Shown here one piece after another: positions 1 to 16,640 of a DNA stretch of 20,000 nt (position 1 is its first letter; each line of letters opens with the position of its first letter). The notes below the pieces were generated by a model, which saw only the letters and a program-made list of their open reading frames with translations, was not told where the DNA came from and made no database searches. This DNA comes from an uncultured virus (IMG/VR IMGVR_UViG_3300037087_000757) (taxonomy: Duplodnaviria > Heunggongvirae > Uroviricota > Caudoviricetes): the IMG/VR virus record IMGVR_UViG_3300037087_000757; one strand, written 5' to 3'. The translations under genes were made by a program, and so were the position numbers.

Positions 1-1
1 G

Positions 2-145
2 TTATCGAGTACATCAGATGAAGAAAATAAATTTGTCGTAGAAATATGGAGATCTTGTTGTGTTGAAAGACATAATAGTAATCATGCTGGTGATTTGATT
101 ATGACAGAAAAGGAAATATTAAATAATTATCTTTACAAAAAATAA
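2..145 (+). CDS. 3' end of a hypothetical protein (truncated by window edge)
   Basis: Frame is open from base 2 (LSSTSDEEIKFVVEIW...NNYLYKK) to TAA at 143-145, followed directly by the next ATG at 155. Confidence 0.6.
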   Translation, partial: LSSTSDEENKFVVEIWRSCCVERHNSNHAGDLIMTEKEILNNYLYKK

Positions 146-154
146 ATACAAAGT

Positions 155-337
155 ATGGAAGGTGTAGAAGTAAAAATATCTAAAACAACAAAAGCCAATA
201 CACCCTATGGATTTCATTATAAAGCCAAGGGAGCTTATGTTCAAGGAAAATATATAATTGTGGTGGGTGAATTGAAAGAGAATAATACTATCAGAATTAA
301 ATATCCTAAGGATGATGTGGAACTAAAATTTTTTTAA
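155..337 (+). CDS. Small hypothetical protein, 60 aa
   Basis: ORF track; tightly packed after the upstream ORF and convergent with 344..1090. Confidence 0.6.
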   Translation: MEGVEVKISKTTKANTPYGFHYKAKGAYVQGKYIIVVGELKENNTIRIKYPKDDVELKFF

Positions 338-343
338 AACGAA

Positions 344-1090
344 TTATAAAATTTTTTCAGCATAATCGAAAAAATTTGAACCGTCTGGATTTAATTTTGG
401 ATTATTTCTTTTATCAAATTTATAAGCTTCTTTGAAATATAATTTACCATAGTTGGATATTGAAGTTCCACATTTCATTATTTCAATTTTCCAATAATCA
501 GAGAGGTATTTATTTAATTTCTTACCTATATCCGCGAAATCTGAGTAATTATCAGAGTCACTACATTTTTTGTATTGTAAAGGTGTTAAAATATTTTTAC
601 ATTCATCGAGAAATCTTTTTATTTTATTTTCATTCCAGTTATTATATAAGTAAGAAATAGGTTCATTAGATAGATAATTATCTAATATAAAATTCATTTT
701 ATCCTTGACTATTTTTGTACCATAATTAATAAATTGACCAACATAATCTTCATCTGGCATAACATCGGTAAATCTATTTTCATCAATAATAAATAAATAT
801 CCAAATTCACCAGCTTCCAGTAGAGGTTCAACATCCATTGAATATCCAACCATATTGGCACCAAGAATATAAATAATAGATTCCTTTAAATTAGGAGTAC
901 AGTAAGTTCTCCCGACATCCGGTGTAATTTTACCGCCTTTTTTATCATTTTGATTCCCCGGTTTTAAATAACCATCTTTCATTATTTTTTCACCTAATGT
1001 CGTAACGGAACATCCATGATAATAGGTAAACTTTATAGAAACAGTTTCAAAAAGTTTATAATTGGTAATTAAGTATTTATTTTCATTCAT
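344..1090 (-). CDS. Putative ADP-ribosyltransferase (Arr/ART fold), possibly virion-packaged
   Basis: YYHGCS...GYLKPG...TYCTPNLKES...GYLFII...PDED follows the motif order of Arr-type ARTs (YHGT, L.PG, YF[ST], YxYxV, acidic DP). The N-terminus has a LITNYKLFE peptide. Confidence 0.55.
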   Translation of the reverse strand: MNENKYLITNYKLFETVSIKFTYYHGCSVTTLGEKIMKDGYLKPGNQNDKKGGKITPDVGRTYCTPNLKESIIYILGANMVGYSMDVEPLLEAGEFGYLFIIDENRFTDVMPDEDYVGQFINYGTKIVKDKMNFILDNYLSNEPISYLYNNWNENKIKRFLDECKNILTPLQYKKCSDSDNYSDFADIGKKLNKYLSDYWKIEIMKCGTSISNYGKLYFKEAYKFDKRNNPKLNPDGSNFFDYAEKIL

Positions 1091-1124
1091 ATTTATTTAA
1101 TTGATTCATTTTAATCATCATGTG

Positions 1125-1134
1125 TATATATAAA
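1125..1134 (-). promoter_or_regulatory. Putative late promoter variant (TTTATATATA)
   Basis: One-mismatch copy of the TTAATATATA motif found before the structural genes, 35 nt upstream of the ATG at 1090. Confidence 0.4.
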
Positions 1135-1196
1135 TTTTTTTATAAAACTTTGTTAGAAAGTAGAACTAAATATATGATAAAAATAATCACAAATGA

Positions 1197-2087
1197 ATGT
1201 ATTATAAGAATGTAGATGACCTCACTCCAGTTGAATTATATGACGGAGTTTACTATAAGAGAGATGACCTATACAGACCTTTTGATCCAGAACCATTGAA
1301 TGGTGGTAAGGTCAGACAATGTATAACCTTGATTCAATCTAATTTACAAAAAATAAAAACTGAACATAATGGTGGGGTTGCTACTGAAACCAGTATAAAT
1401 AGTCCTCAGGGAATTATTATTAGTCGAGTTTGTAAGGAATTTGGTTTGAAATGTATAATTGGAGTAGGCGGACAGGGAAAGAATGATAATAAAATTTGTG
1501 ATGAAATAAGAAAAAACGGGGCCGAAATAATCACCCTTTCTAAAATGGCTTATAGTAATGTTCTACTTAGTAAGCTAAATGAATTAAACAAAAATTATAA
1601 TTATTTTATTATCCAGTTCGGTATAAATGTAAGTGAGAGTACAGAAATCAGAGATTATATAGCTAATCAAGTGGCTAATATTCCAGATGAATTGGATAAT
1701 CTGATCATTCCTACTGGTTCTGGAATATGTGCTGGTGCTATACTTTATGGTATAAAGAAATTCAATAAAAAAGTAAAGAATGTTTATGTGATTCAAATAG
1801 CTGGATACGACAGAACAGATACCATAAATGAAATTTGTAGTGATGTACCTTATATCTTTCTACCTTATAATGTATTTCCATATTCAAAGAAATTAAAGAT
1901 ATTTATAAGACCTGATTTTCAATTAGATACTGTTTATGAAGCTAAAGGTTATCATTGGATGAAAAATTTCCCACACTTTGATGGTGATTATAAATGGGGT
2001 AAAATAAAAAAACCAGATCTTTCTCTTTTATCCCTTCAAGGAAAAACTTTATTCTGGTGTGTGGGGGATGCGTCGATGTATCGTTAA
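1197..2087 (+). CDS. PLP-dependent fold-type II enzyme, ACC deaminase/D-cysteine desulfhydrase-like
   Basis: LTPVE...YKRDDL...NGGKVRQ (Schiff-base Lys region), IPTGSGICAGA phosphate-binding loop and LDTVYEAK (compare DPVY[ET]GK of the ACCD/DCyD family). Confidence 0.85.
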   Translation: MYYKNVDDLTPVELYDGVYYKRDDLYRPFDPEPLNGGKVRQCITLIQSNLQKIKTEHNGGVATETSINSPQGIIISRVCKEFGLKCIIGVGGQGKNDNKICDEIRKNGAEIITLSKMAYSNVLLSKLNELNKNYNYFIIQFGINVSESTEIRDYIANQVANIPDELDNLIIPTGSGICAGAILYGIKKFNKKVKNVYVIQIAGYDRTDTINEICSDVPYIFLPYNVFPYSKKLKIFIRPDFQLDTVYEAKGYHWMKNFPHFDGDYKWGKIKKPDLSLLSLQGKTLFWCVGDASMYR

Positions 2088-2117
2088 ACTTTTTGATTCT
2101 GATATAATATAATCATC

Positions 2118-2411
2118 ATGAAAAAAGATCTTTTTTATAAAGACGCTAGTGTAATAAGAAAAGCTCGAGAAATGACTGAGAAATTAGAATTCAATGATAA
2201 ATTTCTCAATACAGTTTCGGTTATTATTGATGATTTTATAATACCAACTTGTGATGAACCAGATTTGAATTTTTGGAGAAATGTTAAATTGGAAGTTACA
2301 AATTTATATGAAGAATTAATAAACAAAGATAGGTTTGATAAGTTAAATGAAATATTAGACCAACCAATAAAAAATAATGTATTAATTGATGATGAAATTA
2401 TTAAGGACTAA
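2118..2411 (+). CDS. Hypothetical protein, 97 aa
   Basis: ORF between the PLP enzyme and the MTase-like gene; overlaps the start of the downstream gene. Confidence 0.7.
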   Translation: MKKDLFYKDASVIRKAREMTEKLEFNDKFLNTVSVIIDDFIIPTCDEPDLNFWRNVKLEVTNLYEELINKDRFDKLNEILDQPIKNNVLIDDEIIKD

Positions 2412-4218
2412 GTATAATGATTATGATTTAAGTGACTTACCAAATCCATTTTTTCAGGATTTAAGAGAAATGTCAGAAAATGATTTGAATGATGTAGCTG
2501 AACAAATTAGATTAGGATTATTAAAGAAGTGGCAAACCAACAAACAACCATTGGGTGGTGGTAAAAAAACTGATGAAAAAATTATAAAAGATTTCAGAGA
2601 GTTATCAAAGTTTAATGATGATCTTACACTGGTATGTGATGATGAAGGGAATAGAAATATAGTTAAATTCTTTGGAAAACAACCATCAGGTATTAATCAG
2701 TATTTTCCTGAAATGTTGGATACACCAATCTCACTTGGTAATAAGTCTGTAAGTGTTATGGATGTTATCAAGACAACAGATGTTTTCCAAAAGTTTTTCT
2801 ATTCAGTTGTCTTTAAGGATAGAATGTATAGTTTTACAATGTGGTATAATAAAGAATTCATTTCACAGGAAACTTGGGATTTATTAGGTGATAAAATACC
2901 AATCCAATTGGATGATGTTAAGAAATCCGAATATGGTTATAAATTACCTTTCTTTTTCAAAAAAGGAATTAACTATTATAAATTAGAGGACAAGAACGAT
3001 AAAACAAATTCAAAATATATTGATTCTACTGAAAAGGAATACAATCAAAGCATGAAGATATTTCCACAGATTACTCAATCTTTCAGATTGGGGGGTGGAA
3101 GTCAGCCAGTAAGTAATTTTTCAGCTGGTGGGGCTCGTTTTTTAATCAGAAAAGGTTTTCAAAACGCGATAGATAATAATTTGATCGAGAATGATACTTT
3201 TGTGGTATTAGATCCATCTACTGGATGGGCTGGTCGTTTGGTAGGATTACTTAGTGTTTATACTGAACTAAGAAAGTTATACTTTGAGAAGAACAATAAA
3301 CAATTGAGGGTAGTTTATTTAACGACAGATCCGAATGAAGAAATTAACGATAGATATAATGACATTATCGAAGATTGGTTTACTGTTATTGAACCAACAG
3401 CTGAAAAAAGTATGTTCAGGATATTTAAAGACATGACAGGATCAGAAACTCCCGAATTTTTGGATTACTGTAAAGATAAATTATCTAAGTTAAAGATAAA
3501 TGGTTGTACTATGGGATTAACATCCCCACCATATTTCAATAGGGAACGATATAGCAAAGATCAAAATCAAAGCTGGGTAAAGTATGGTAGTTCATATGAA
3601 AGTTGGTCTAAGGGGTTCTTAAAACCCACTATCGAGAATATAAGTCAATTGATGGTTGATGGTGGTATCTTTTATATGAACATTGCTGATATAAAACATA
3701 ATTCCAAATTATTATCATTGGAACAAGATACAATTGATGGGGGTGATGAATATGGATGTTCCAGTACAGGTGTATATAAAATGTTAATGTCAACTATGAC
3801 AGGAAACAACAAGAATAAGGAAACGGGCGGACAACCTAAGAACACCGTGAAAATAATGGGTGATGGATTTAGAAAGTTTGAACCAATTTTCATTTTGAAA
3901 AAAGGAGCCAAGTCAATATCAAATATAGTTGAAACAAAGACAGTTGATACCGTTGTTGATAATCCCCCAAAAATAGATCTTGAAGAAGAAGTTTTTTCAG
4001 AATCAAAAATAGATATTGAATTACCATCTGGTAAAAAAGTGGTGGTTGAATCTCCAACTCAGGAAGAATTAGATGATTTCTTAAATGATGTTAAACCAAA
4101 CGAAAAATTGGAAATTAATCAACATACAGAAGAAACTATTGAAAAATTGAATTATAAACCTCAATCTGTTGATACTGATGACGATGATGATTGGTTTGAC
4201 AAACTTTCTCCTTGTTAA
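2386..4218 (+). CDS. Large SAM-dependent DNA amino-methyltransferase-like protein (motif I before motif IV) with acidic C-terminal tail
   Basis: SAM-binding motif VLDPSTGWAGRL, catalytic TSPPYFNRERY, downstream GGIFYMNIAD and EPIFILKK strands. About 260-aa N-terminal extension and about 100-aa acidic low-complexity tail. Confidence 0.8.
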   Translation: MMMKLLRTKYNDYDLSDLPNPFFQDLREMSENDLNDVAEQIRLGLLKKWQTNKQPLGGGKKTDEKIIKDFRELSKFNDDLTLVCDDEGNRNIVKFFGKQPSGINQYFPEMLDTPISLGNKSVSVMDVIKTTDVFQKFFYSVVFKDRMYSFTMWYNKEFISQETWDLLGDKIPIQLDDVKKSEYGYKLPFFFKKGINYYKLEDKNDKTNSKYIDSTEKEYNQSMKIFPQITQSFRLGGGSQPVSNFSAGGARFLIRKGFQNAIDNNLIENDTFVVLDPSTGWAGRLVGLLSVYTELRKLYFEKNNKQLRVVYLTTDPNEEINDRYNDIIEDWFTVIEPTAEKSMFRIFKDMTGSETPEFLDYCKDKLSKLKINGCTMGLTSPPYFNRERYSKDQNQSWVKYGSSYESWSKGFLKPTIENISQLMVDGGIFYMNIADIKHNSKLLSLEQDTIDGGDEYGCSSTGVYKMLMSTMTGNNKNKETGGQPKNTVKIMGDGFRKFEPIFILKKGAKSISNIVETKTVDTVVDNPPKIDLEEEVFSESKIDIELPSGKKVVVESPTQEELDDFLNDVKPNEKLEINQHTEETIEKLNYKPQSVDTDDDDDWFDKLSPC

Positions 4219-4254
4219 AATTTTTTTATCTCAGCAACATTCCGTATCTTTGTA
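4217..4254 (+). promoter_or_regulatory. Bacteroidota-type (early) promoter, copy 1
   Basis: AAAATTTTTTTATCTCA-N11-TATCTTTGTA; TAnnTTTG at 4245-4252; ATG at 4271. Confidence 0.75.
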
Positions 4255-4270
4255 GAAATAAATTTAATTT

Positions 4271-4669
4271 ATGAAAAAGTCCGTTAAATATTCAAGTAAA
4301 CCAACCTTAATTGAAATTGAAGGAATCGAGGGAGAGATTGAATTACTTGGAAAAATTGAAATGGTTGATAATGGAATCGGACCTTATGAATATTGGGGAT
4401 CTAAATGTGTCGATATTCAAATTGGCCCTGAGGTTCAGGAGATCTCTTGGGATAAAACCAAATATTCCGAAGAACAGAATAAAATCATTGATAAATATAT
4501 TGATGATAATTTTGATGATCTGGCTCAGAAAATGGAAGAAGAATTCGAACCACCTGAAGAAATTGAACCAGATTTTCCAGAACCAGATTTTCCAGAATCT
4601 ATTGATGGTTGCTTTGGTCAACATAAACCTTTATCGGATTTTCCAACATTTCCAGAAGATGAAAAATAA
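4271..4669 (+). CDS. Acidic hypothetical protein, 132 aa
   Basis: ORF directly after the promoter; about 27% Asp+Glu by manual count; Pro-rich EPDFP repeats. Confidence 0.75.
   Translation: MKKSVKYSSKPTLIEIEGIEGEIELLGKIEMVDNGIGPYEYWGSKCVDIQIGPEVQEISWDKTKYSEEQNKIIDKYIDDNFDDLAQKMEEEFEPPEEIEPDFPEPDFPESIDGCFGQHKPLSDFPTFPEDEK
4565..4597 (+). repeat. In-frame 15-bp tandem repeat (GAACCAGATTTTCCA x2.2), encodes EPDFP-EPDFP-E
   Basis: Read directly from the sequence. Confidence 0.85.
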
Positions 4670-4895
4670 AGTAAAAAGTTGGTTTAGATATCAACATTAC
4701 AGTACGAGTGTAGTTTCGGAATCACATAATCATTTCATGACCTGCTTAAGTCATTTGGAAACGAAATGTGATAAAGAATTGTGTAATGATTCGAGATCAG
4801 CAGACGAACATTGGAAAGAAATACTTTCCTGTATAAATACTTTAGATGATAAAGAAATTGTACATTTATATTATCTGATAAGAAATGGAAAATAA
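4659..4895 (+). CDS. Hypothetical protein, 78 aa (MKNKVKSWFRY...)
   Basis: 3' part of track ORF 4311..4895. The ATG at 4659 overlaps the end of the previous gene and is the more plausible start. Confidence 0.65.
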   Translation: MKNKVKSWFRYQHYSTSVVSESHNHFMTCLSHLETKCDKELCNDSRSADEHWKEILSCINTLDDKEIVHLYYLIRNGK

Positions 4896-5079
4896 GAAAT
4901 GGATGCCAAAAGTTGGTGGAAAGTATTATTGGATTGGGAGTGGTCATATTCTCAAAGGAGTTCACAAAAGAATATGGGAAGGTAATGATGTTGATATGTC
5001 TTATTGGAAAAATAATAATTGTTTCAAATCATTATCTGAAGCAACATTTATTTACAAGTCATTCAATGGAAGTTTTTAA
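4885..5079 (+). CDS. Hypothetical protein, 64 aa
   Basis: Overlapping start/stop with the upstream gene; WxPKxGxxYYxI pattern typical of small phage proteins. Confidence 0.65.
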   Translation: MENKKWMPKVGGKYYWIGSGHILKGVHKRIWEGNDVDMSYWKNNNCFKSLSEATFIYKSFNGSF

Positions 5080-6926
5080 ATATTATTATTCACACCTGTC
5101 CAGATGATATTAACCGTTGATAATCCATTAACAATAGGAACATCATTATAATAAATTCCATTTCTATCATACCAACCACCACGAAGAATTGCCAATTCAT
5201 TTGTATCTGTAATAATATCTCCCTGAATTGGATCTAATCCCAAAACTCTATTTGAATCATATCTTGTTTTGTCTATTGGTGTTGGATAAAGATATTGATC
5301 CGATGGACTTATACTCGTAAATATTACATTATTGTTTTGATTCTGTACGGTTCTGTTACGATGATAATCCTCGTTTTTCTTGGATATAAATTCTACATAT
5401 ACTGAATCTATACCATCTATGTTTTTAATCATCCTAATGATGTCTGCACGAACAATACGGTCAAATCTTTGGTTGTTGACAAAGTAATCAGATAGATTTG
5501 ATATTATTAAATTTCTTAAACTATCTTCCAGAATATTAGCATTTCTTCTGACATAAACATTCATAATATAAAAAGATAAAACTGGATTGATTATTTTTAC
5601 TGAAGTCGTAATACTCATTATGGCCATTTGTTTCAAATAATCAAGTGTTTTGTTCTTTTCATAATCACTTAGATAAAAAGCATTCAGAGGAATATTAAAG
5701 TAATTAAAATCCCCTTGGAAATAATTTTGAATATTTGGAATTAAGAATAAATACATGACATTATCGAAAACATTAGGAAAATAATATTTCATGTTTGATC
5801 TTACAGTATCAATATCAATGACATTCCCAAATGTTGTGGTGATAAAATTGTCAATATAAGCATCTGAACTGGTATTCGTATCATCTAAGACATTATAAGC
5901 ATTGATAAGAGAGAACTTATTCAATCTTCTCAGGTGAAATATAAATTGAGGTGGTGTGGCTAAAACGAAATTACGAGAAACATAAGGAATTATATTTTTT
6001 GTAAGTGTTTTATTTTCTTTATCAGAACCAAAATTAATATCATTTTCGATTGTGGTATCAAATATATTTTCTACATTAATAATATTACCATCATTATCCA
6101 CAATATCACCCACATATGTAAAATCGTTTGTTTTGTTGTTTAGAATCGTTCCACTCGAACCATCTGAAAGAATATATTGGACTTCAATTATACTTCCAAT
6201 GTCTGGAACAAATCCATTATCTCCATTTCCAAAGAAAACATCTACCCCACCTGAGAAACCAGTTCTCGTCCAACAGGCTAATTCATTTGGTAACATATCA
6301 TACATATGATCCCTTATATTTAGTAATATACCGTTGTAAAATATAGCATAATTAAAATTTTCTATATTCTGTGTTGAGTTAACAACAACCTGATATGATT
6401 GGCCCTTTAATCCAGTTCCAGTATATTTTTGTGTTTCATATTTACCTTGAATTACATTCAAAAGTATGGAAGTATCAGGAAGAATTTGATAAATAGAATA
6501 ATCAGATCCCAATACTATATTATAGAATAAATTGTTTGATTTATTTTTTAATTGTGTCTTATTGTAAATCTTTATTTTTGAACCGGCAATTTCATTTGCT
6601 ATATCTATACCAACTTTTATTTTTAATTTGATTGTACCTGTAGCGGAAACAGCTCGTGTAGGATTGAGTCCTGATATAACAGCAATATTATTTATAATTC
6701 GTTCATCGGTGGCGTTATCTATTGTGAACTGATTCACAGCGTTCTTTACATATAAAATACTATTCGTGTAAACTTCTTTATTGGTATTAACCATCTGGCC
6801 ATAAGGAGAAGCGTCGGTAAAATTTATATCCGATTTATTCTGTGACTGTTTCAACCAAGTCACTAACTGATTGGTTAAATCAGCGTATTTTGTAGACAGA
6901 TAATTAAAAACTGAGTTTGTTGCCAT
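5076..6926 (-). CDS. Baseplate wedge subunit, T4 gp6-like / baseplate J-like
   Basis: 616 aa. N-terminal helical region followed by IDNA...I.NIA.ISGLNP.RA.SA.G.I, VIQG, VFFGNGDNGFVP..GS.IEVQYILSDGSSG and GSDKE. This is the motif order of gp6-like wedge proteins of myoviruses. Confidence 0.8.
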   Translation of the reverse strand: MATNSVFNYLSTKYADLTNQLVTWLKQSQNKSDINFTDASPYGQMVNTNKEVYTNSILYVKNAVNQFTIDNATDERIINNIAVISGLNPTRAVSATGTIKLKIKVGIDIANEIAGSKIKIYNKTQLKNKSNNLFYNIVLGSDYSIYQILPDTSILLNVIQGKYETQKYTGTGLKGQSYQVVVNSTQNIENFNYAIFYNGILLNIRDHMYDMLPNELACWTRTGFSGGVDVFFGNGDNGFVPDIGSIIEVQYILSDGSSGTILNNKTNDFTYVGDIVDNDGNIINVENIFDTTIENDINFGSDKENKTLTKNIIPYVSRNFVLATPPQFIFHLRRLNKFSLINAYNVLDDTNTSSDAYIDNFITTTFGNVIDIDTVRSNMKYYFPNVFDNVMYLFLIPNIQNYFQGDFNYFNIPLNAFYLSDYEKNKTLDYLKQMAIMSITTSVKIINPVLSFYIMNVYVRRNANILEDSLRNLIISNLSDYFVNNQRFDRIVRADIIRMIKNIDGIDSVYVEFISKKNEDYHRNRTVQNQNNNVIFTSISPSDQYLYPTPIDKTRYDSNRVLGLDPIQGDIITDTNELAILRGGWYDRNGIYYNDVPIVNGLSTVNIIWTGVNNNI

Positions 6927-6954
6927 TTATTTGTTTTATTCTTTTCTTTTCTTT

Positions 6955-6964
6955 TATATATTAA
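6955..6964 (-). promoter_or_regulatory. Putative late promoter TTAATATATA
   Basis: Exact motif 29 nt upstream of the baseplate ATG; recurs before other structural-block genes. Confidence 0.55.
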
Positions 6965-7305
6965 TCGAACCACAATCTGATATGATCGCCTTCTTCTGTT
7001 ATTTCATCAGCACCAAGATTTTGTATAGAATATAATAAATCATGTAAAATTCTTTCATCTGTATAGTAAATAAGTAAAGAACTTCCGTCTATTTCATAGG
7101 ATAAAGAATTATTTGAACCGAATTCATTCTTGAATTTATCAAATCCATCTTCATCCATTAAATTAACATTGATTGATTGAAAATCTGGATCTTCCAATAA
7201 TTCATCAAAGCTCAATCTCTTTCCAGAATCGGGGTGCGTTCCAAATGGATAAAGTTCCTCATTTACTTTATTATTGAATTCTTTAAATTCTTTTATGTAT
7301 TTCAT
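6961..7305 (-). CDS. Acidic hypothetical protein with capsid-targeting-like N-terminus
   Basis: Begins MKYIKEFKEFNNKVNEE; lies in the structural block with its own TTAATATATA motif. Confidence 0.75.
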   Translation of the reverse strand: MKYIKEFKEFNNKVNEELYPFGTHPDSGKRLSFDELLEDPDFQSINVNLMDEDGFDKFKNEFGSNNSLSYEIDGSSLLIYYTDERILHDLLYSIQNLGADEITEEGDHIRLWFD

Positions 7306-7327
7306 CCAGTAGTTAATTATTTTATCT

Positions 7328-7337
7328 TATATATTAA
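7328..7337 (-). promoter_or_regulatory. Putative late promoter TTAATATATA
   Basis: Exact motif 23 nt upstream of the ATG at 7305. Confidence 0.55.
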
Positions 7338-7405
7338 ATATTAGTATGGTGTATTTAGAAAAAACGACTTAAAAACTTTAATGCGGCAAAAAATATAAAG
7401 AATTT

Positions 7406-7477
7406 TGGGTTGAGGAACCAACCCAGCGTCACTCAAAGTGAATGGTTACATTGTGCTTGTGATGTAGAAACTACATC
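7406..7477. other. Structured intergenic element with three hairpins (candidate ncRNA or terminator/processing site)
   Basis: TGGGTTG/CAACCCA (7406-7425), TCACT/AGTGA (7429-7441) and GATGTAG/CTACATC (7461-7477); more GC-rich than the flanks. Confidence 0.45.
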
Positions 7478-8175
7478 TATGTAGTATGTTCATAATTATC
7501 TCTCAGTGTCTCTCCAATAGTTTGTATTAATGTGGTAATATTTGGTTTTTCTACCTCTGAATCTTTATCAAATATATTGAATGTCAATTTGAATTTACCC
7601 ACTCCTAATTTTTTAACTGTCAATTTCACTTCATCTTGATCATTTACAGTCATCACAAAAGTAAAATCCAAATTCTTACATGGAACATTCTTCATATCTG
7701 GTTCATATTTGAATCCAGTAATAGATATATCCTTTATCTTATTTTTATAGAACCATTCATTAATCGTGTGCTCTGGTTTTTTTATAAATTCCGATAAAAT
7801 TTTCAAATCTCCACCAAATTTATTATTTGAAATGATTTCTCTAATTTTGTTTTTAAAATCGTTTATATCATTAAATGTTTCTTCTGGTGAAAATTGACAA
7901 TTTATTTCAAATAAATACTTAAAATTATTATTGATAAGATATGTTCTTTGATTGTCTACATTAAAAAGTAATTTGGTATATATAATAACTTGGTCTTTCG
8001 AATATAACTTAGTAATACTGATAATCATTTTAAGTCCACCCTCACCTTGTTCATAAACGGAATCAGTGGAGAAAACATCATCATTAGCAAAGATTTCTTT
8101 CAACGCTTTGTAAATATCCTGTATGGATATTTTATTTTCATTTTGTTCCTTTATGAATTGATTATATGATTTCAT
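7477..8175 (-). CDS. Hypothetical protein with capsid-targeting-like N-terminus, 232 aa
   Basis: Begins MKSYNQFIKEQNE; ATGA overlap with the upstream gene. Confidence 0.8.
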   Translation of the reverse strand: MKSYNQFIKEQNENKISIQDIYKALKEIFANDDVFSTDSVYEQGEGGLKMIISITKLYSKDQVIIYTKLLFNVDNQRTYLINNNFKYLFEINCQFSPEETFNDINDFKNKIREIISNNKFGGDLKILSEFIKKPEHTINEWFYKNKIKDISITGFKYEPDMKNVPCKNLDFTFVMTVNDQDEVKLTVKKLGVGKFKLTFNIFDKDSEVEKPNITTLIQTIGETLRDNYEHTT

Positions 8176-8567
8176 ACCTTAATTTTATTATATCTTCTGT
8201 TTGTATACCATTTAATACTATCATCTGTATAACCAAGTAATTTTCCAATGTAATAAGCTTCTTCGGGTGTTTTATCTTCTACATATCCACCCTTAGTTTT
8301 CATGAAGTCATATAATTCATGAGCATCCTTAGTCCCTTCATCGTTGAAAATAATTGTCATCCCTACATCATGATTGGTTTGTTTTACTAAAATCGAATTC
8401 AATCCACATTCTTTTATTTTGTTTATACAATAAGGGTCATGAAATGTAGATATTAAACCAACATTTCTTTTCCCTTTGATAATTGTATCGATGGCCTTTT
8501 CAAAAGTATTAGTTTCAAATGGTGCATCAACTTCTTCGTTTATAAATTCATTAAATGATTTCACCAT
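8172..8567 (-). CDS. Hypothetical protein with capsid-targeting-like N-terminus, 131 aa
   Basis: Begins MVKSFNEFINEE; C-terminal IGKLLGY motif; starts 2 nt after the stop of the 885-aa gene. Confidence 0.8.
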   Translation of the reverse strand: MVKSFNEFINEEVDAPFETNTFEKAIDTIIKGKRNVGLISTFHDPYCINKIKECGLNSILVKQTNHDVGMTIIFNDEGTKDAHELYDFMKTKGGYVEDKTPEEAYYIGKLLGYTDDSIKWYTNRRYNKIKV

Positions 8568-8569
8568 GT

Positions 8570-11227
8570 TTAATATGGATTTTTTAATTCACTATTCAAA
8601 AATTCCTTAGTAACAAGATATCTATGGTTTATATCCGAAAAATCACTAGCATCAATTCTTGTTACAGATACTTTAAATCCTTTGTAATAGTGGATTTTTG
8701 GTGTTCCTTTTAATTTAATTTGTAATCCAGCTGTATTTAAGGATAAATGTAACTGGATACCAGTTAAACCAATTATGTAATATAATCCAGATAAATCTGC
8801 TAATTGTGTCGTACCTCCACTTTCAAAAAAGAAATCTTCTACATACACATAATCTCCCAAAAAGAATAAATTTTCTTTTATATCAATAAGTGTTGTCGTT
8901 CCTGTGGTTACTCTATCTACGAATGTTGTTAAAGAATAGTAGTAAGAATTATTGAAAACAGAATCAGGTGGTGATACTATATTATATTGACTAACATCCA
9001 CTGGAGTATCAATATTACCAAGTAATAGAGTTTCAACCTTTCCATTTGGTGACCCATCATAAAACATAATATTTAAATTCAATTTGTTTGAATATAAAGC
9101 AATATCAGGTCTTATAATAAAATCAACACTTTGTTTATACGCTAAATCGTTATCCAGAGCAACATTTAATGTGAGTCCAGAATATTGAACAGTTAAGTTA
9201 TTATATATGTTCACCAAGAATTTACCTGATGTTGGAACAGGCACCATGTAGGAAACCGTTACTCCACTTTGAGTTTGTTTAGCGATGTTATATTGAGCGA
9301 TGTCGGATGTCTTATAATTATCAATTTCAATATAGTCTACAAGTTGAGCATTGAAAGATAAAGCCGGATAGTTTTTTGTGTAATCAATTTTCAATTTAAC
9401 TGTATCAGAATCCACAAATTGATTGGTTTGATACATTTTAAGAAGATCTGTCATATTGTTTAATCTATTCTTTATATCATTGATGTCCGTCTGAGAATAA
9501 AGTAAACTTTTGAGTTTAACAATCTCTTGGTTTATATTTATAAATTCAGATTGTATATTAGTGTATTGTTCTGTCAATCTAACATAATTGTTCATGACAT
9601 TGTTATACAAATCAAAACTAAAAGCGTTAAAGGTACTCGTTGGATCAAATCTCAAAGGTAACATATCATTATCAACTTTGAAGATAAGATTAAGATTAAA
9701 AATATAACTAAAACCATCTTGATTTTCAGTAGTTACAAGTTTTCTGGTTGTGGTAATTGCTCTATCATTGTCATTACCGAAATCATTATCTGGATTATCC
9801 AAAAATTGAATACCGTATATGTTTGTAAATGTTTCATTGGTCGTATTATTTGTTACGGTATAATACCATAAAATAGCATTGAATTCAAAATCTGTTGGAG
9901 GATTACCATCTAATGAAAGTCCATCGAAATCATCAAAATTATTAACTGATTTCCCAGCTTGTTGAGATTTGTAATAATGTTTGATATTAAAATCAAGTCC
10001 TAAACCATCAATATTATCACTTTGGAATTCTTCCAGATTCTCTATATAATCATCCGCGGCCAATCCTACATTATTCACTCTTAAAACACCGAAGTAATCT
10101 CCACTATAACGAACTGGATCTCCTGTACTTGTTTTATATGTTTTATCAAAAGTATCGAAATATCCGAAGTATGATCCGGGATAATCTGAAGGATTAGTAC
10201 GAATAGGTGAACTTAAATTTTCAGAACCTATAATTTCATCCTGAATTTGTTCATCCAATATAGGGATTTCTAAGCCGGGATAGAAATTTGAATTACTATT
10301 TATTCTAAATAAAATAGAAGGTGTATGACCAGCATATGCTGGAATTAAGGCTGAAAACTCCGTGAAATTTTCTTGTTGTGCCTTTTCTTTACTGGTGTAT
10401 TGTATTTCACCTATGTATTGAATTAAGTTATGATATTGTAAATAACAAATTCCTGAATATGTATTTCCATCAGTCCAAGATAAATCCAAAGTAATTGTAG
10501 TTGATGGTACATTATAATCAAATAAAATATCAGTAACGATATGAGTTGATCCTGTTAAGGCTCCATCTAAAACTGTTGTTCCTGTCGTGATATAAATAAC
10601 ATCTCCGATTTTAAATTTTGCTATCTGTCCGACTGTCAATTCAGCGTTTGATCCGTCCGTATTAATTTGACAAGAATAATTTCTCACTTCTCTTTCTTTC
10701 CAAAGATATCTACGAAAATAATCTTGATTCGTAACAGTAGAAGCGTTTGTATTTTCAAAATCTGGTAAATTTTTATCCCAATCAATTTTATGTTCGGCTG
10801 GTTCTAAATCAATGATATTGTTCTTTTTACACCATTTCCACAACACCATTTCAGCTGGGGTTGTAAATTCTTTTGCATTATAAAAATCCTTATTTGTTGA
10901 TATTCTAGCGTTTCTAAATTCAGCATCATGATTGGCCACATAGTTCCTGAGGGATTCCACAAGTTGTTCCGAATATTTAACTGGATAAGATGAATTTGGG
11001 TCAAAATTATACATATTTATTCCATTTGTAGGATCTAAAACATCTTGTTTAGACAAATTCAAAACTTTTCCTGAACTCACTGGAATGTTGAGTAATACAA
11101 ATTTTGACATATGCATATCAACTTCTGATTGTGAAAGATATGTATTGAAATCGCTTGATGAACTTGGAAAGGCGTAGAATGTTGTACCTTTCGATCTCAT
11201 TCGCTTATATAACGGACATGAAGCCAT
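8570..11227 (-). CDS. Large putative virion structural protein, 885 aa
   Basis: Long ORF co-oriented with the baseplate gene; Asn/Asp/Thr/Tyr-rich, beta-rich appearance with a central coiled-coil segment (EQYTNIQSEFININQEIVKLKS...). The structural role is inferred from context. Confidence 0.6.
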   Translation of the reverse strand: MASCPLYKRMRSKGTTFYAFPSSSSDFNTYLSQSEVDMHMSKFVLLNIPVSSGKVLNLSKQDVLDPTNGINMYNFDPNSSYPVKYSEQLVESLRNYVANHDAEFRNARISTNKDFYNAKEFTTPAEMVLWKWCKKNNIIDLEPAEHKIDWDKNLPDFENTNASTVTNQDYFRRYLWKEREVRNYSCQINTDGSNAELTVGQIAKFKIGDVIYITTGTTVLDGALTGSTHIVTDILFDYNVPSTTITLDLSWTDGNTYSGICYLQYHNLIQYIGEIQYTSKEKAQQENFTEFSALIPAYAGHTPSILFRINSNSNFYPGLEIPILDEQIQDEIIGSENLSSPIRTNPSDYPGSYFGYFDTFDKTYKTSTGDPVRYSGDYFGVLRVNNVGLAADDYIENLEEFQSDNIDGLGLDFNIKHYYKSQQAGKSVNNFDDFDGLSLDGNPPTDFEFNAILWYYTVTNNTTNETFTNIYGIQFLDNPDNDFGNDNDRAITTTRKLVTTENQDGFSYIFNLNLIFKVDNDMLPLRFDPTSTFNAFSFDLYNNVMNNYVRLTEQYTNIQSEFININQEIVKLKSLLYSQTDINDIKNRLNNMTDLLKMYQTNQFVDSDTVKLKIDYTKNYPALSFNAQLVDYIEIDNYKTSDIAQYNIAKQTQSGVTVSYMVPVPTSGKFLVNIYNNLTVQYSGLTLNVALDNDLAYKQSVDFIIRPDIALYSNKLNLNIMFYDGSPNGKVETLLLGNIDTPVDVSQYNIVSPPDSVFNNSYYYSLTTFVDRVTTGTTTLIDIKENLFFLGDYVYVEDFFFESGGTTQLADLSGLYYIIGLTGIQLHLSLNTAGLQIKLKGTPKIHYYKGFKVSVTRIDASDFSDINHRYLVTKEFLNSELKNPY

Positions 11228-11247
11228 ATTAATGATAGTTTTTTCTT

Positions 11248-11257
11248 TATATATTAA
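11248..11257 (-). promoter_or_regulatory. Putative late promoter TTAATATATA
   Basis: Exact motif 21 nt upstream of the ATG at 11227. Confidence 0.55.
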
Positions 11258-11275
11258 AAGTGAGATAGTGTAAAT

Positions 11276-11313
11276 AAAATTTTTTTATCTCACTGAAATA
11301 TCGTAATTTTGTA
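11276..11313 (+). promoter_or_regulatory. Bacteroidota-type (early) promoter, copy 2
   Basis: AAAATTTTTTTATCTCA-N11-TAATTTTGTA; first 17 bp identical to copy 1; TAnnTTTG at 11304-11311; ATG at 11331. Confidence 0.75.
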
Positions 11314-11330
11314 ATTCTAATAAGATTAAT

Positions 11331-11507
11331 ATGTCAACGAGAAGTAAAAAAGAATATCCCTTTAAAGTTATAACTGTTATTCCTAAGGTCTTAAGCAAGA
11401 AAAAGGATGTTATCAGAACCAGTTATTACAAAACAAGAGAACTGGCCCAGAAAGATGTGGACGCTTGGCATGAAGCTGGTTTTTCAAGTAAAATTTATGA
11501 TCGATAA
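11331..11507 (+). CDS. Small basic hypothetical protein, 58 aa (not in ORF track)
   Basis: Manually translated as MSTRSKKEYPFKVITVIPK...EAGFSSKIYDR*; first gene after promoter copy 2. Confidence 0.7.
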   Translation: MSTRSKKEYPFKVITVIPKVLSKKKDVIRTSYYKTRELAQKDVDAWHEAGFSSKIYDR

Positions 11508-11519
11508 AAAAGGAAAAAA

Positions 11520-11741
11520 ATGAAAGTACATGAAGTAATGACCGAACTCTCGAAGCAAGACCCGAACGCTGAAGCCTATTATGACAATCGCTATGAGGCC
11601 ATTCCTATTACAAATGTGGAATCTTTACCACTAAATATACCAAAAAGGAAAGGGAGTGCTCGTTTTTATCCTTTTGGAAGTGGAGTAAAAAAGTGTAAAT
11701 CAAAAGGTGTCGTAATATTCAATCAGAAACATAAAGAATAA
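11520..11741 (+). CDS. Hypothetical protein, 73 aa
   Basis: MKVxExxxxLxxxDPNAE start is typical of small phage proteins; operon packing. Confidence 0.7.
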   Translation: MKVHEVMTELSKQDPNAEAYYDNRYEAIPITNVESLPLNIPKRKGSARFYPFGSGVKKCKSKGVVIFNQKHKE

Positions 11742-11753
11742 AAATACATTATT

Positions 11754-12023
11754 ATGAAAAAGAAAATTATTGTATTTCACGGTAATCAACCATGTATCGA
11801 AACTAAGTACGATGAAGTCCAAAAAGTAGATTTTGGATTAAACAGGAATAGACAACCTGATGGAGAGTGGGGTGAATTTCGTTGGACAAGACTTGATAAA
11901 AAGTACTACAAAGAAGTTCCATTGACTCCCAAACTCAGGAAAATTCTCACTGAAGATATCTGTGAATATTACAAGGGTAAAGAAGCTTATGAAAAACTAA
12001 CCTCATTTGGTTTATTGAAATAA
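11754..12023 (+). CDS. Hypothetical protein, 89 aa
   Basis: ORF track; operon packing. Confidence 0.7.
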   Translation: MKKKIIVFHGNQPCIETKYDEVQKVDFGLNRNRQPDGEWGEFRWTRLDKKYYKEVPLTPKLRKILTEDICEYYKGKEAYEKLTSFGLLK

Positions 12024-12032
12024 GACCGATTT

Positions 12033-12401
12033 ATGAGATACAGATTATTTTTCGCCAATAGTGTAAATACTACATACACACCAGAATATTACCAGACTTC
12101 CGATTTTTTTGGTCCGTATTATTTGAATATGTTGAAATATGTAAATGAGAAATTACACGACAAGTCGAAAAAACTTTATTTTTGCTTTATATATGATGAA
12201 CAAAATAAACTAATTCATTCATTTAAAAGAGGTAAATCAATTCAAAAAATAATTGATAGAATAGAAAAACAAAAAGAGATTAAACGTTTGTTGTCCATCC
12301 CATTCGAACAAAGAACTCAGAAAGATAGTGATTTAGTAAAAAAATTGGTTTATGAAACTCGAAGCAGGTCTATTAGACCGATTAACCGATCTAACCAATA
12401 G
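12033..12401 (+). CDS. Hypothetical protein, 122 aa
   Basis: ORF track; operon packing. Confidence 0.7.
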   Translation: MRYRLFFANSVNTTYTPEYYQTSDFFGPYYLNMLKYVNEKLHDKSKKLYFCFIYDEQNKLIHSFKRGKSIQKIIDRIEKQKEIKRLLSIPFEQRTQKDSDLVKKLVYETRSRSIRPINRSNQ

Positions 12402-13706: not shown

Positions 13707-13709
13707 ATC

Positions 13710-14000: not shown

Positions 14001-14013
14001 AATATAATATTAT

Positions 14014-14418: not shown

Positions 14419-14522
14419 TTTTTTATTCCTTTCTTATTATATATTGTCTTTTCCATTCGTAGTTTTAAAAATAAAGAACATATTTTTATTAAATATGTTT
14501 TGTATAAAACAGGTTTTGATAT

Positions 14523-14532
14523 TTAATATATA
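14523..14532 (+). promoter_or_regulatory. Putative late promoter TTAATATATA
   Basis: Exact motif 21 nt upstream of the ATG at 14553. Confidence 0.5.
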
Positions 14533-16628: not shown

Positions 16629-16640
16629 ATTCGTTCATGA

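What the first reader, a model, noticed from the sequence alone, without database searches (positions are those of the whole stretch)
1197..4218. ACC-deaminase-like PLP enzyme clustered with an atypical amino-MTase: candidate DNA hypermodification module
Seen: a fold-II PLP enzyme, a 97-aa protein and a 610-aa SAM-dependent protein (DPSTGWAGRL...TSPPYF) are co-oriented and tightly packed, with the last two overlapping. Established: ACC deaminase acts on a compound made from the aminobutyryl part of SAM, true ACC deaminases carry the PVY-E motif (here TVYEAK), and some Rossmann SAM enzymes transfer the 3-amino-3-carboxypropyl group instead of methyl. Inference: a phage has little use for ethylene-precursor catabolism, so the pair may install and then remodel (deaminate/eliminate) an amino-acid-like adduct on a DNA base as an anti-restriction modification. 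The long N-terminal extension and acidic tail of the MTase-like protein suggest extra partners, for example coupling to replication.
Basis: partly seen in the sequence, partly recalled or inferred. Interest (0 to 1): 0.75.

Follow-up and report, generated by a model that had tools for sequence, protein, structure and literature searches.

The report
Phage methyltransferase-PLP DNA-modification gene pair
A giant phage from peat carries a methyltransferase-like enzyme next to a vitamin-B6 enzyme related to ones proven to trim amino acids attached to phage DNA; other viruses fuse the two into one protein, so together they probably put an undescribed, larger-than-methyl group on DNA bases.

Summary
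The three ORFs are real and packed as described. The PLP protein (1197-2087) belongs to the ACC-deaminase/D-cysteine-desulfhydrase-like branch of fold type II. Its closest characterised relatives are Salmonella phage ViI gp226 and Pseudomonas phage M6 gp52, PLP decarboxylases that act on amino acids tethered to DNA bases. The 610-aa protein (2386/2392-4218) has a class-I SAM-transferase core with intact motif I and an SPPY motif IV. It also has a conserved N-terminal domain and a tail ending in a conserved DWFDxL peptide.

The two families are linked. Five fusion proteins were found, in both domain orders, one with a 2OG hydroxylase in between. A PLP gene lies near 21 of 80 viral loci that encode the transferase family, and 13 of 22 PLP genes abut a transferase-like gene. 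The link is not universal.

The 97-aa ORF is an orphan in an insertion that the closest relative lacks.

Best reading: SAM-derived alkyl transfer (probably 3-amino-3-carboxypropyl) to a base amine, then PLP tailoring (probably decarboxylation). The chemistry and the DNA target are inferred, not shown.

Six full-text searches found no paper describing this pairing. This scan has flagged the same pairing before on other DNA (unchecked AI notes).

The parts
1091..1196 (+). AT-rich divergent intergenic region upstream of the cassette; probable promoter region
   Evidence: It lies between the minus-strand ORF 344-1090 and the PLP gene. There is one sigma-70-like match at 1150-1178, but such matches are no more frequent here than in shuffled sequence.
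1197..2087 (+). Fold-type-II PLP enzyme of the ACC-deaminase/D-Cys-desulfhydrase-like branch. It is a member of the phage family that holds the DNA-adduct decarboxylases ViI gp226 and M6 gp52. Predicted Schiff-base lysine: K38.
   Evidence: Pfam PALP and phrog_3650 (E 9e-25) and phrog_7093. BLASTP to gp226 E 4e-18 and to gp52 E 2e-9. K38 is invariant and aligned with gp226 K92 and gp52 K36. Structure and profile matches.
2118..2411 (+). Orphan 97-aa ORF inside an insertion between the two enzyme genes; not a conserved member of the module
   Evidence: No family hit in Pfam, PHROGs, NCBIfam or PADLOC. No tblastn match in any fetched locus. It is absent from L092, where the PLP and transferase genes are about 60 nt apart.
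2386..3120 (+). Conserved N-terminal domain (residues 1-245) of the methyltransferase-like protein; function unknown, possibly target recognition
   Evidence: It is conserved across the family, with R42, W49, P55, G59, I66, F107, M110, S123 and D145 invariant or nearly so. It is modelled with mostly high pLDDT. The ESM Atlas gave only unnamed viral clusters, scoring <= 0.84.
3121..3915 (+). Class-I SAM-dependent transferase core (residues 246-510). Motif I is D276-PSTGWAGR, the acidic residues are D315 and E354, and motif IV is S380-P-P-Y383. Motifs run I then IV.
   Evidence: Invariant columns. Model. VIA-align: Trm11 5e71 Z 14.9, TrmN 3tma 14.8, Trm14 3tlj 14.5. PADLOC Type II MTase models hit residues 361-450 at E 1.4e-5. 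tblastn to a Vibrio phage gene annotated as 'N-4 cytosine-specific DNA methylase' gives 26% identity.
3916..4218 (+). Low-confidence, variable, acidic C-terminal tail
   Evidence: pLDDT is below 50 for 512-529 and 581-610. Length and sequence vary among close homologues.
4186..4206 (+). Conserved terminal peptide DDWFDKL (residues 601-607); candidate docking motif
   Evidence: [DN]WF[DN]x[LY] lies at or near the C-terminus in 11 of the 16 closest homologues, and P0006 has it twice.
4271..4669 (+). 132-aa acidic protein downstream and co-oriented; syntenic in the closest relative; function unknown
   Evidence: 45% identical homologue in L092, between the transferase gene and the baseplate wedge gene. 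No family hits.

Best explanation
The PLP gene and the methyltransferase-like gene form a two-enzyme accessory cassette in a roughly 736-kb peat phage. The cassette most likely hypermodifies the phage's own DNA after replication. Step 1 (inferred): the 610-aa protein has a class-I SAM-dependent transferase core with the (D/N/S)PPY-type motif that activates exocyclic base amines. It uses this core to alkylate a base nitrogen (N6-A, N4-C or N2-G). The group moved is probably the 3-amino-3-carboxypropyl (acp) part of SAM rather than the methyl group, which leaves an alpha-amino acid hanging on the base. Step 2 (inferred by homology): the PLP enzyme forms an external aldimine with that tethered amino acid and tailors it. 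The most likely reaction is decarboxylation, as with its relatives ViI gp226 and M6 gp52, and the product would be a cationic aminopropyl-type side chain. The conserved N-terminal domain and the terminal DWFDxL peptide of the transferase probably provide DNA recognition and docking. Shown here: the folds, the catalytic motifs, homology to the proven DNA-adduct decarboxylases, and the genetic coupling of the two families. Inferred: the substrate (DNA), the group transferred, the PLP reaction type and the anti-restriction role. My odds: the two enzymes act in one pathway, about 0.85; the pathway makes a non-methyl nucleic-acid base modification, about 0.55-0.6; the route is specifically acp followed by decarboxylation, about 0.3.
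For: P0015 and P0106 run transferase then PLP, P0075 and P0117 run PLP then transferase, and P0217 runs transferase, Asp/Asn-hydroxylase-like 2OG oxygenase, then PLP.

Neighbourhood: 21 of 80 viral-contig loci encoding the transferase family carry a PLP-family gene within the fetched +-8 kb, all co-oriented. Among loci with at least 5 kb on both sides the figure is 13 of 33. Of 22 PLP genes, 13 lie within 100 nt of a transferase-like gene and 19 within 2.5 kb. As a baseline, the PLP family is found in 336 of 50,697 phage records.

Synteny: PLP-transferase order is kept in the closest relative, L092 (72% and 75% identity). Both genes are absent from the related 735-kb phage LR756501, although the adjacent baseplate genes are shared.

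PLP homology: gp226 E 4e-18, gp52 E 2e-9, and K38 aligns with the published Schiff-base lysines. Those enzymes decarboxylate amino-acid:nucleobase conjugates in polymeric DNA (PMC8989533, passages read).

Partner diversity: PLP relatives also sit beside other candidate installers or tailoring genes. These are a 2OG hydroxylase plus a PF01555 MTase, FemAB/LPG-synthase-like genes, and a spermidine-synthase-like gene. This matches the combinatorial pattern the paper describes.

Context: the transferase family is embedded in T4-type replication gene clusters (clamp loader in 32 of 82 loci, clamp, PolB, UvsW, gp46/47, RNase H), which points to DNA.

Precedents: SAM donates acp groups (review PMC10491745, abstract in the listing). 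An MTase-fold enzyme moves a non-methyl group onto phage DNA in CmoX/CmoA (PMC12783734, abstract). An acp-bearing base is tailored by a fused 2OG dioxygenase in wybutosine synthesis (PMC2938197, passages).
Against: There is no chemical evidence; nothing here shows what group is transferred or onto what. The coupling is not universal. 59 of 80 loci have no PLP gene in the fetched flanks, and two whole clades of the transferase tree (10 and 17 rows) lack it. Only 1 of 5 long contigs without a local PLP gene has one elsewhere. Vibrio phage 2.058.O and Bacteroides phage DAC16 have distant transferase relatives but no PLP gene. Family members may therefore be ordinary methyltransferases. The SAM motifs look like those of ordinary amino-methyltransferases, and I found no sequence signature of acp transfer. 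The structural neighbours are tRNA m2G and cap methyltransferases, barely above generic class-I folds (Z 14.9 against 12.4-14), so neither base nor nucleic-acid type is resolved. Co-orientation is weak evidence in modules where most genes share a strand. The rest of the roughly 736-kb genome was not available, so a classical 5-hmdU kinase / amino-acid:DNA-transferase partner for the PLP enzyme elsewhere in the genome cannot be excluded.
Confidence: 0.5

Rival explanations
1. Cofactor-first route. The PLP enzyme acts on SAM itself, for example decarboxylating it to dcSAM or otherwise making a SAM analogue. The methyltransferase-fold protein then transfers the altered group (for example aminopropyl) to the base, as CmoA supplies carboxy-SAM to CmoX or as spermidine synthases use dcSAM. 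The end product could be the same aminopropyl base.
For: The CmoA/CmoX precedent for a partner enzyme that feeds a SAM analogue to an MTase-fold DNA modifier (PMC12783734, abstract). A spermidine-synthase-like gene lies two genes from the PLP gene in L009. Fusion and adjacency fit cofactor channelling as well as adduct tailoring.
Against: The characterised relatives gp52 and gp226 act on DNA-tethered amino acids, not on free cofactors. From memory: known SAM decarboxylases are pyruvoyl enzymes. The PLP family also pairs with non-SAM installers such as FemAB-like genes.
Confidence: 0.15
2. Ordinary methylation. The 610-aa protein is a plain m6A/m4C (or m2G) DNA methyltransferase. The PLP enzyme is a metabolic helper, such as removal of a SAM-derived by-product or amino-acid catabolism, or is functionally unrelated.
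For: The motifs are those of amino-methyltransferases. There are weak matches to Type II MTase models and to a Vibrio phage gene annotated as an N4-C methylase. Many family members have no PLP gene nearby.
Against: Independent fusions in both orders and a triple fusion with a hydroxylase are hard to explain for unrelated functions. The PLP protein's nearest characterised relatives work on DNA adducts. A methylated base offers no primary amine for PLP chemistry. The window already encodes a canonical PF01555 methyltransferase at 15524-16258.
Confidence: 0.15
3. RNA target. The pair modifies RNA (tRNA or rRNA in phages, mRNA caps in giant viruses) rather than DNA, in the manner of acp3U, m1acp3-pseudouridine or wybutosine.
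For: The best structural neighbours are tRNA m2G methyltransferases (Trm11, TrmN, Trm14) and cap N7 methyltransferases. From memory: all known acp transfers are onto RNA. Earlier notes of this scan report fusions of the pair to cap enzymes in giant viruses (unchecked).
Against: Phages lack caps. The family sits in DNA-replication modules. The PLP relatives gp52 and gp226 act on DNA. No tRNA or Rfam RNA lies in the window. The Z-score margin over generic methyltransferases is small.
Confidence: 0.1
4. The PLP enzyme works as an ACC-deaminase/D-Cys-desulfhydrase-type lyase that deaminates or eliminates, rather than decarboxylates, the adduct.
For: The nearest solved relatives are ACC deaminase homologues and D-cysteine desulfhydrase. 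The Tyr-Glu pair (Y247-E248) aligns with the DPVYTGK segment of 1j0a.
Against: The same Y-[DE]-x-K motif occurs in the proven decarboxylases gp226 and gp52. No NCBIfam ACC-deaminase or desulfhydrase model is matched at E <= 1. Gamma-elimination of an acp adduct would simply remove the modification.
Confidence: 0.1

Closest known systems
Salmonella phage ViI gp226 and Pseudomonas phage M6 gp52 (PLP-dependent decarboxylases of amino-acid:thymidine conjugates; Lee et al., NAR 2021/22, PMC8989533)
   Same: The same phage PLP family (BLASTP E 4e-18 and 2e-9; phrog_3650 and phrog_7093), with an aligned Schiff-base lysine and the shared Y-[DE]-x-K and LFW-x-G motifs. gp226 was modelled on the same template (1j0a) that is the best profile hit here.
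   Different: Identity is only 20-28%. In ViI and M6 the amino acid is installed on 5-hmdU by a 5-hmdU DNA kinase plus an aGPT-Pplase-type amino-acid:DNA transferase. Here the linked or fused partner is a SAM-transferase-fold protein, and no kinase or aGPT-Pplase was seen among the 27 window ORFs scanned. The target base and the adduct are therefore probably different.
N6-adenine/N4-cytosine DNA amino-methyltransferases (Pfam PF01555 N6_N4_Mtase and relatives)
   Same: A class-I Rossmann fold, a motif I of the D-P-x-x-G-x-G type and an SPPY motif IV. Relatives score weakly on PF01555 across motif IV and what follows it.
   Different: The window protein does not reach Pfam significance. Its motifs run I then IV, not IV then I as in the PF01555 profile. 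It has a conserved N-terminal domain of about 245 aa and a docking-type tail. The family is repeatedly fused or adjacent to a PLP enzyme and a 2OG hydroxylase, for which a methyl product gives no reason.
CmoX/CmoA of Synechococcus phage S-B43 (5-carboxymethylcytosine; PMC12783734, abstract read)
   Same: A phage MTase-fold enzyme that puts a non-methyl, SAM-derived group on DNA with the help of a partner enzyme, and the group is then elaborated further.
   Different: CmoX is a C5-cytosine enzyme that uses carboxy-SAM made by CmoA. Here the motif IV is of the exocyclic-amine type and the partner is a PLP enzyme. No homology between the systems was tested.
Aminocarboxypropyl transfer and tailoring in RNA (TYW2 with the yW hydroxylase in wybutosine; Tsr3; TapT)
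   Same: The proposed logic is the same: a SAM-derived acp group is placed on a base and then tailored, and the tailoring dioxygenase is fused to pathway enzymes in some lineages (PMC2938197, passages). From memory: TYW2 has a class-I MTase fold.
   Different: Those systems act on tRNA or rRNA, have no PLP step, and no sequence or structural match to them appeared in the lists examined. This is a resemblance of logic only.
ACC deaminase / D-cysteine desulfhydrase family (1j0a, 1f2d, 1rqx, 4d8t)
   Same: The nearest cellular and solved relatives by profile (E 2.9e-13 to 2e-5) and by fold (TM up to 0.73). The Lys, the Ser-rich loop and the Tyr-(Glu) positions are present.
   Different: No equivalog-level match, about 12-17% identity in structural alignments, a viral-only clade, and the nearest characterised members are decarboxylases of DNA adducts.

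Membership tests
Phage DNA-adduct PLP decarboxylases (ViI gp226 / M6 gp52 family) | Significant sequence homology to gp226 and gp52 over the PLP domain | tested here: met
   BLASTP E 4e-18 (28% over 225 aa) to gp226 and E 2e-9 (20% over the full length) to gp52. phrog_3650 E 9e-25 and phrog_7093 E 5e-9.
Phage DNA-adduct PLP decarboxylases (ViI gp226 / M6 gp52 family) | Schiff-base lysine at the position of gp226 K92 / gp52 K36 | tested here: met
   K38 is an invariant column in the 13-sequence alignment that includes both enzymes. The residue numbers are from PMC8989533.
Phage DNA-adduct PLP decarboxylases (ViI gp226 / M6 gp52 family) | Genomic association with a 5-hmdU DNA kinase and an aGPT-Pplase-type amino-acid:DNA transferase | tested here: not met
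   None among the 27 window ORFs scanned with Pfam and PHROGs. The rest of the roughly 736-kb genome was not available, so absence from the genome is not shown.
Phage DNA-adduct PLP decarboxylases (ViI gp226 / M6 gp52 family) | Decarboxylation of a DNA-tethered amino acid | not testable with these tools
   Needs enzymology and nucleoside LC-MS.
True ACC deaminase (AcdS) | Match to a curated ACC-deaminase or D-Cys-desulfhydrase family model | tested here: not met
   No such NCBIfam model at E <= 1. The best hit is cysteine synthase A at E 0.0057, 15.8 bits against a cut-off of 387.
True ACC deaminase (AcdS) | Catalytic Lys, and a Tyr-Glu pair at the DPVY-x segment (residue roles recalled from the literature, not from a call) | tested here: inconclusive
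   K38 and Y247-E248 are present and align to the DPVYTGK segment of 1j0a. The same Y-[DE]-x-K motif occurs in the decarboxylases gp226 and gp52, so it does not discriminate. The Leu322 position was not examined.
N6/N4 DNA amino-methyltransferases (PF01555) | Motif IV (D/N/S)PP(Y/F) and SAM-binding motif I | tested here: met
   S380-P-P-Y383 and D276-x-x-x-G280-W-x-x-R284 are invariant in 39 sequences.
N6/N4 DNA amino-methyltransferases (PF01555) | Pfam gathering-threshold match and the profile's motif order (IV before I) | tested here: not met
   No PF01555 hit at E <= 0.01 for the window protein. Relatives score 22-34 bits around the 26.7 cut-off, and only on the first part of the profile, positions 1 to about 156 of 221. 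Motif I lies upstream of motif IV.
N6/N4 DNA amino-methyltransferases (PF01555) | Methyl transfer to DNA | not testable with these tools
   Needs assays that distinguish SAH from MTA as by-product and +14 from +101/+57 Da adducts.
SAM-dependent aminocarboxypropyl transferases (TYW2/Taw2, Tsr3, TapT) | Sequence or structural similarity to a known acp transferase | tested here: inconclusive
   None in the sequence searches of the PDB and none among the 50 entries listed by VIA-align. A family that is not listed is not excluded.

The most novel reading that the evidence does not exclude
This cassette is a minimal two-gene form of a widespread and so far undescribed route of DNA hypermodification. 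An amino-methyltransferase-fold enzyme would transfer the aminocarboxypropyl part of SAM onto an exocyclic amine of a DNA base, and a gp226-like PLP enzyme would decarboxylate it to an aminopropyl (polyamine-like) side chain. In some viruses a fused 2OG hydroxylase would then hydroxylate it. This would be the first acp/aminopropyl modification of DNA. It would be present in T4-like aquatic phages, huge phages and giant viruses, with the enzyme docked to the replisome through its terminal DWFDxL peptide.
Probability: 0.3. Interest if true: 0.9.

Novelty: new variant of a known kind. Interest (0 to 1): 0.72.

Why it matters
All characterised amino-acid-derived phage DNA hypermodifications start from 5-hydroxymethyl pyrimidines made before replication. 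A SAM-transferase-led route would instead act directly on ordinary bases. It would add a new class of DNA chemistry (acp or aminopropyl purines or cytosines) and could explain resistance of many uncultured phages to restriction and to sequencing or cloning.

The family is large. There are 6,037 cluster representatives at E <= 0.001 and at least 559 viral-contig loci. One biochemical experiment on a two-gene cassette such as this one would therefore annotate thousands of genes. It could also yield enzymes for site-specific amine labelling of DNA.

Tried and rejected
- **Whole genome:** not held. L093's record is not searchable.
- **Near-identical DNA in phage records:** none. A single-protein scan of viral contigs for the 610-aa protein found none, whereas the profile scan found many.
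- **Longer forms:** the 'longer' search with residues 200-510 found no fusion above 1,068 aa. The tool itself calls this weak evidence.
- **PDB sequence searches with the transferase:** nothing at E <= 0.1, for the single protein or the profile.
- **Fold searches:** Foldseek and VIA-align did not resolve the base or nucleic-acid type. BFVD gave only generically named viral methyltransferases.
- **N-terminal domain:** ESM Atlas returned unnamed viral clusters scoring <= 0.84, which is lead level only.
- **Complex prediction:** not available, so physical binding of the two proteins was not tested.
- **Sequencing runs:** 16 peat or freshwater runs in 13 studies hold the stretch, all as contigs, and no RNA holder is listed. 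Contigs cannot show modification or expression, so no reads were laid.
- **Promoter and terminator scan:** no more sites than in shuffles.
- **tRNA and Rfam scans of the window:** empty.
- **PADLOC:** only weak Type II MTase matches.
- **Residue signature of PLP-linked transferases:** considered and dropped, because the PLP label is scattered over the tree and truncated flanks blur it.
- **Literature:** six full-text searches found no paper describing a methyltransferase-PLP DNA-modification pair or acp transfer to DNA. Subscription-only papers and bioRxiv supplements were not searchable.


Full report
**Observation.** The window is AT-rich (25-33% G+C). It holds three co-oriented ORFs at 1197-2087 (296 aa), 2118-2411 (97 aa) and 2386-4218 (610 aa from TTG). 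The database form of the last protein is 608 aa, which implies a start at the ATG at 2392. The quoted peptides are present.

A fourth co-oriented ORF (4271-4669, 132 aa) follows. The cassette is bounded upstream by a divergent gene (344-1090, minus strand) and downstream by a convergent baseplate-wedge gene (5076-6926, minus strand; phrog_219 E 1.4e-14).

**Source organism.** The phage is a huge one. The window's own protein sits on a contig of 736,551 bp. The wedge protein is 59% identical to that of the 735,411-bp uncultured phages LR756501 and LR756503, and it matches other 460-640-kb phages and Lak phages more distantly. The stretch occurs in 16 peat or freshwater metagenome runs from 13 studies, held as contigs only.

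**The PLP enzyme.**
- Family hits: Pfam PALP is just above threshold (37.1 against 35 bits). The phage families phrog_3650 (E 9e-25) and phrog_7093 ('threonine dehydratase', E 5e-9) match better.
- Solved relatives: a profile of 21 viral relatives hits the ACC-deaminase homologue 1j0a (E 2.9e-13), the ACC deaminases 1f2d and 1rqx, and an ACC deaminase/D-Cys desulfhydrase (9jqf), ahead of cysteine synthases and tryptophan synthase beta.
- Model: the AF2 model (pLDDT 84.9) matches D-cysteine desulfhydrase (E 3e-10) and 1j0a (TM 0.73).

No curated ACC-deaminase or desulfhydrase model is matched at E <= 1.

Among phage records, tblastn finds 336 records, mostly Kuttervirus (ViI-like) phages. I fetched ViI gp226 (YP_004327553) and M6 gp52 (YP_001294560). 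The window protein aligns to gp226 at E 4e-18 and to gp52 at E 2e-9 over the full length. In a 13-sequence alignment K38 is invariant and coincides with gp226 K92 and gp52 K36. Lee et al. propose these lysines as the Schiff-base residues.

Lee et al. showed with purified proteins that both enzymes decarboxylate amino acids (O-serinyl and C-alpha-glycinyl) tethered to thymidine in polymeric DNA (PMC8989533, passages read). It aligns to DPVYTGK of 1j0a. It therefore marks the clade, not ACC-deaminase chemistry.

**The 610-aa protein.**
- Sequence hits: nothing in Pfam at E <= 0.01, nothing in NCBIfam, and nothing in PDB sequences. There are weak Type II MTase hits around motif IV in PADLOC. It is 26% identical to a Vibrio phage gene annotated as an N4-C methylase.
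- Family size: 77 relatives by the word-index search; 6,037 cluster representatives at E <= 0.001, of which 882 are at <= 1e-30; at least 559 confirmed viral-contig loci.
- Conserved residues: in 39 aligned members the invariant columns include D276, G280, W281 and R284 (motif I), D315 and N317, G352 and E354, S380-P-P-Y-F384 (motif IV), N432, and K497, E499 and P500. This is an intact SAM-transferase active site of the exocyclic-amine type, with motif I upstream of motif IV.
- Model: pLDDT 82.3, with a class-I Rossmann core at about residues 246-510. The best VIA-align matches are tRNA m2G methyltransferases (Trm11 5e71 Z 14.9, rmsd 2.7 Å, 179 aligned; TrmN 3tma 14.8; Trm14 14.5) and cap methyltransferases (about 13.9). 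These are only slightly above generic class-I enzymes at 12.4-14. The fold is clear; the substrate is not.
- Flanking regions: residues 1-245 form a domain conserved across the family, of unknown function. Residues 511-610 are a variable, acidic, low-confidence tail.
- Terminal peptide: the tail ends in DDWFDKL. A [DN]WF[DN]x[LY] peptide is found at or near the C-terminus in 11 of the 16 closest homologues, behind linkers of different length, and twice in P0006. The partner is unknown.

**Are the two genes linked?** Yes, though not universally.
- Fusions: among the 223 proteins retrieved, 5 join this transferase family to this PLP family (own HMM E 1e-57 to 1e-86). P0015 and P0106 run transferase then PLP. 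P0075 and P0117 run PLP then transferase. P0217 runs transferase, Asp/Asn-beta-hydroxylase-like 2OG oxygenase, then PLP. Pfam itself detects PALP in 4 of the 19 long proteins scanned.
- Neighbourhood: of the 80 best viral-contig loci for the transferase family, 21 carry a PLP-family gene in the fetched +-8 kb, all on the same strand. Among loci with at least 5 kb on both sides, 13 of 33 do. Counting all transferase-like paralogues, 13 of 22 PLP genes lie within 100 nt of one and 19 of 22 within 2.5 kb. The PLP family occurs in only 336 of 50,697 phage records overall.
- Close relatives: L092 (transferase 75% identical, PLP 72%) keeps the order PLP, transferase, ORF132 homologue, wedge gene. 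The 735-kb relative LR756501 shares the baseplate genes but has neither enzyme anywhere in its genome. The cassette therefore behaves as one accessory unit.
- Reciprocal view: relatives of the PLP gene (34-39% identical) sit beside a 2OG hydroxylase plus a small PF01555 methyltransferase with a degenerate motif IV (L006-L008, L010). Others sit beside a transferase of the window's family plus a spermidine-synthase-like gene (L009), or between two FemAB/LPG-synthase-like genes (L003-L005).

**Evidence against a strict link.**
- 59 of 80 loci show no PLP gene in the fetched flanks.
- In a quick tree of 74 rows (ORFs under 400 aa and duplicate sequences dropped), the PLP label needs at least 10 changes, and two clades (10 and 17 rows) lack it entirely.
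- Of 5 long contigs without a local PLP gene, only 1 has one elsewhere.
- L093 (62% identical transferase) has none within 8 kb.
- Vibrio phage 2.058.O and Bacteroides phage DAC16 have distant transferase relatives and no PLP gene.

Some family members must therefore work alone, possibly as ordinary methyltransferases.

**The 97-aa ORF.** It has no homologue in any library or locus. It lies in an insertion of about 300 nt relative to L092, where the PLP stop and the transferase start are about 60 nt apart. It is not part of the conserved module.

**Target.** In the viral contigs the transferase family lies among T4-type replication genes: the gp44 clamp loader in 32 of 82 loci, gp62, the gp45 clamp, PolB, UvsW, gp46/47 and RNase H. 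Together with the DNA-directed activity of gp52 and gp226, this favours DNA. The window has no tRNA or Rfam RNA. An RNA target is not excluded, because the structural neighbours are RNA enzymes and earlier unchecked notes of this scan mention cap-enzyme fusions in giant viruses.

**Mechanism proposed.** PLP chemistry needs a primary amine next to the reacting carbon. A methylated base offers none, and the only amino-acid-like group that SAM can donate is 3-amino-3-carboxypropyl. The simplest joint reaction is therefore acp transfer to a base amine by the transferase, followed by PLP-dependent tailoring of the tethered amino acid. By homology the tailoring step is decarboxylation, which would give an aminopropyl side chain.

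A cofactor-first order reaches the same product: PLP-dependent decarboxylation of SAM, then aminopropyl transfer, as in spermidine synthases. The spermidine-synthase-like neighbour in L009 hints at this order.

Three precedents exist:
- SAM as an acp donor (PMC10491745, abstract in the listing).
- A phage MTase-fold enzyme that transfers carboxymethyl from a partner-made SAM analogue (CmoX/CmoA; PMC12783734, abstract).
- Tailoring of the acp side chain of wybutosine by a dioxygenase that is fused to pathway enzymes (PMC2938197, passages). This parallels the hydroxylase seen in the triple fusion P0217.

All of this is inference. No tool result shows the transferred group.

**Comparison and novelty.** The PLP half is a new member of a known family (gp226/gp52). 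The transferase half is an unusual, uncharacterised branch of the amino-methyltransferases. Their pairing as installer and tailor is not described in any paper found by six full-text searches. The scan's own earlier AI notes report the same pairing in other genomes, and one of those notes was later marked 'part of it fell' without detail. I found the fusions and the gp226 homology before reading those notes, and they are not independent evidence. I rate this a new variant of a known kind: post-replicative, amino-acid-type phage DNA hypermodification.

**Limits.** Supplements of PMC8989533, which may list PLP fusions and contig contexts, were not opened.

Noticed in passing
window 1-20000 (wedge gene 5076-6926, minus strand): The window comes from a huge phage. 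Its own contig is 736,551 bp, and the baseplate wedge is 59% identical to that of the 735,411-bp uncultured phages LR756501/LR756503. The same stretch is held by peat metagenome runs from 13 studies.
   Followed up: partly
window 4186-4206: The transferase tail ends in a conserved peptide, [DN]WF[DN]x[LY]. It is present in 11 of the 16 closest homologues behind variable acidic linkers, and twice in P0006. This looks like a docking motif; the partner is unknown.
   Followed up: partly
window 14553-16258: A canonical PF01555 DNA methyltransferase (15524-16258, minus strand, E 5e-28, motif DLPY) abuts an HNH/DUF559-type endonuclease gene (14553-15536, plus strand). The phage therefore also has an ordinary methyltransferase.
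   Followed up: no
window 17008-17634 and 12897-13706: A family-2 glycosyltransferase (minus strand, E 6e-14) and an SMC_N/AAA_21-type ATPase (plus strand) lie in the same window. Most other ORFs, including the 885-aa ORF at 8570-11227, have no family match.
   Followed up: no
L009:2107-8782: One viral contig strings together a clamp loader, a transferase of the window's family (433 aa), the PLP gene, a 353-aa unknown, a spermidine-synthase-like gene (PF01564, E 2e-11) and a weak GmrSD_N-like protein. This could be an extended aminopropyl-type module with a modification-dependent nuclease relative.
   Followed up: partly
L003:9098-14273 (also L004, L005): Here the PLP homologue (39% identical) is flanked by two LPG_synthase_C/FemAB-like genes and a GIY-YIG endonuclease, with no methyltransferase-like gene. 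This suggests a third kind of installer for the adduct, possibly dependent on aminoacyl-tRNA.
   Followed up: no
L006:7067-9742 and L010:5407-7989: A 2OG Asp/Asn-hydroxylase-like gene, the PLP gene and a 228-aa PF01555 methyltransferase overlap end to end. That methyltransferase has SLPD in place of the usual (D/N/S)PPY motif IV.
   Followed up: partly
L033:7209-10381, L064:7194-10381; L040, L066, L085: Several viral contigs carry two or three paralogues of the transferase family. In L033 and L064 these are tandem full-length copies. Elsewhere they are extra copies of about 410 aa, and in L060 one of these abuts the PLP gene.
   Followed up: partly
L058:10123-13761: A family-B DNA polymerase next to the transferase gene contains an intein with a LAGLIDADG domain.
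   Followed up: no
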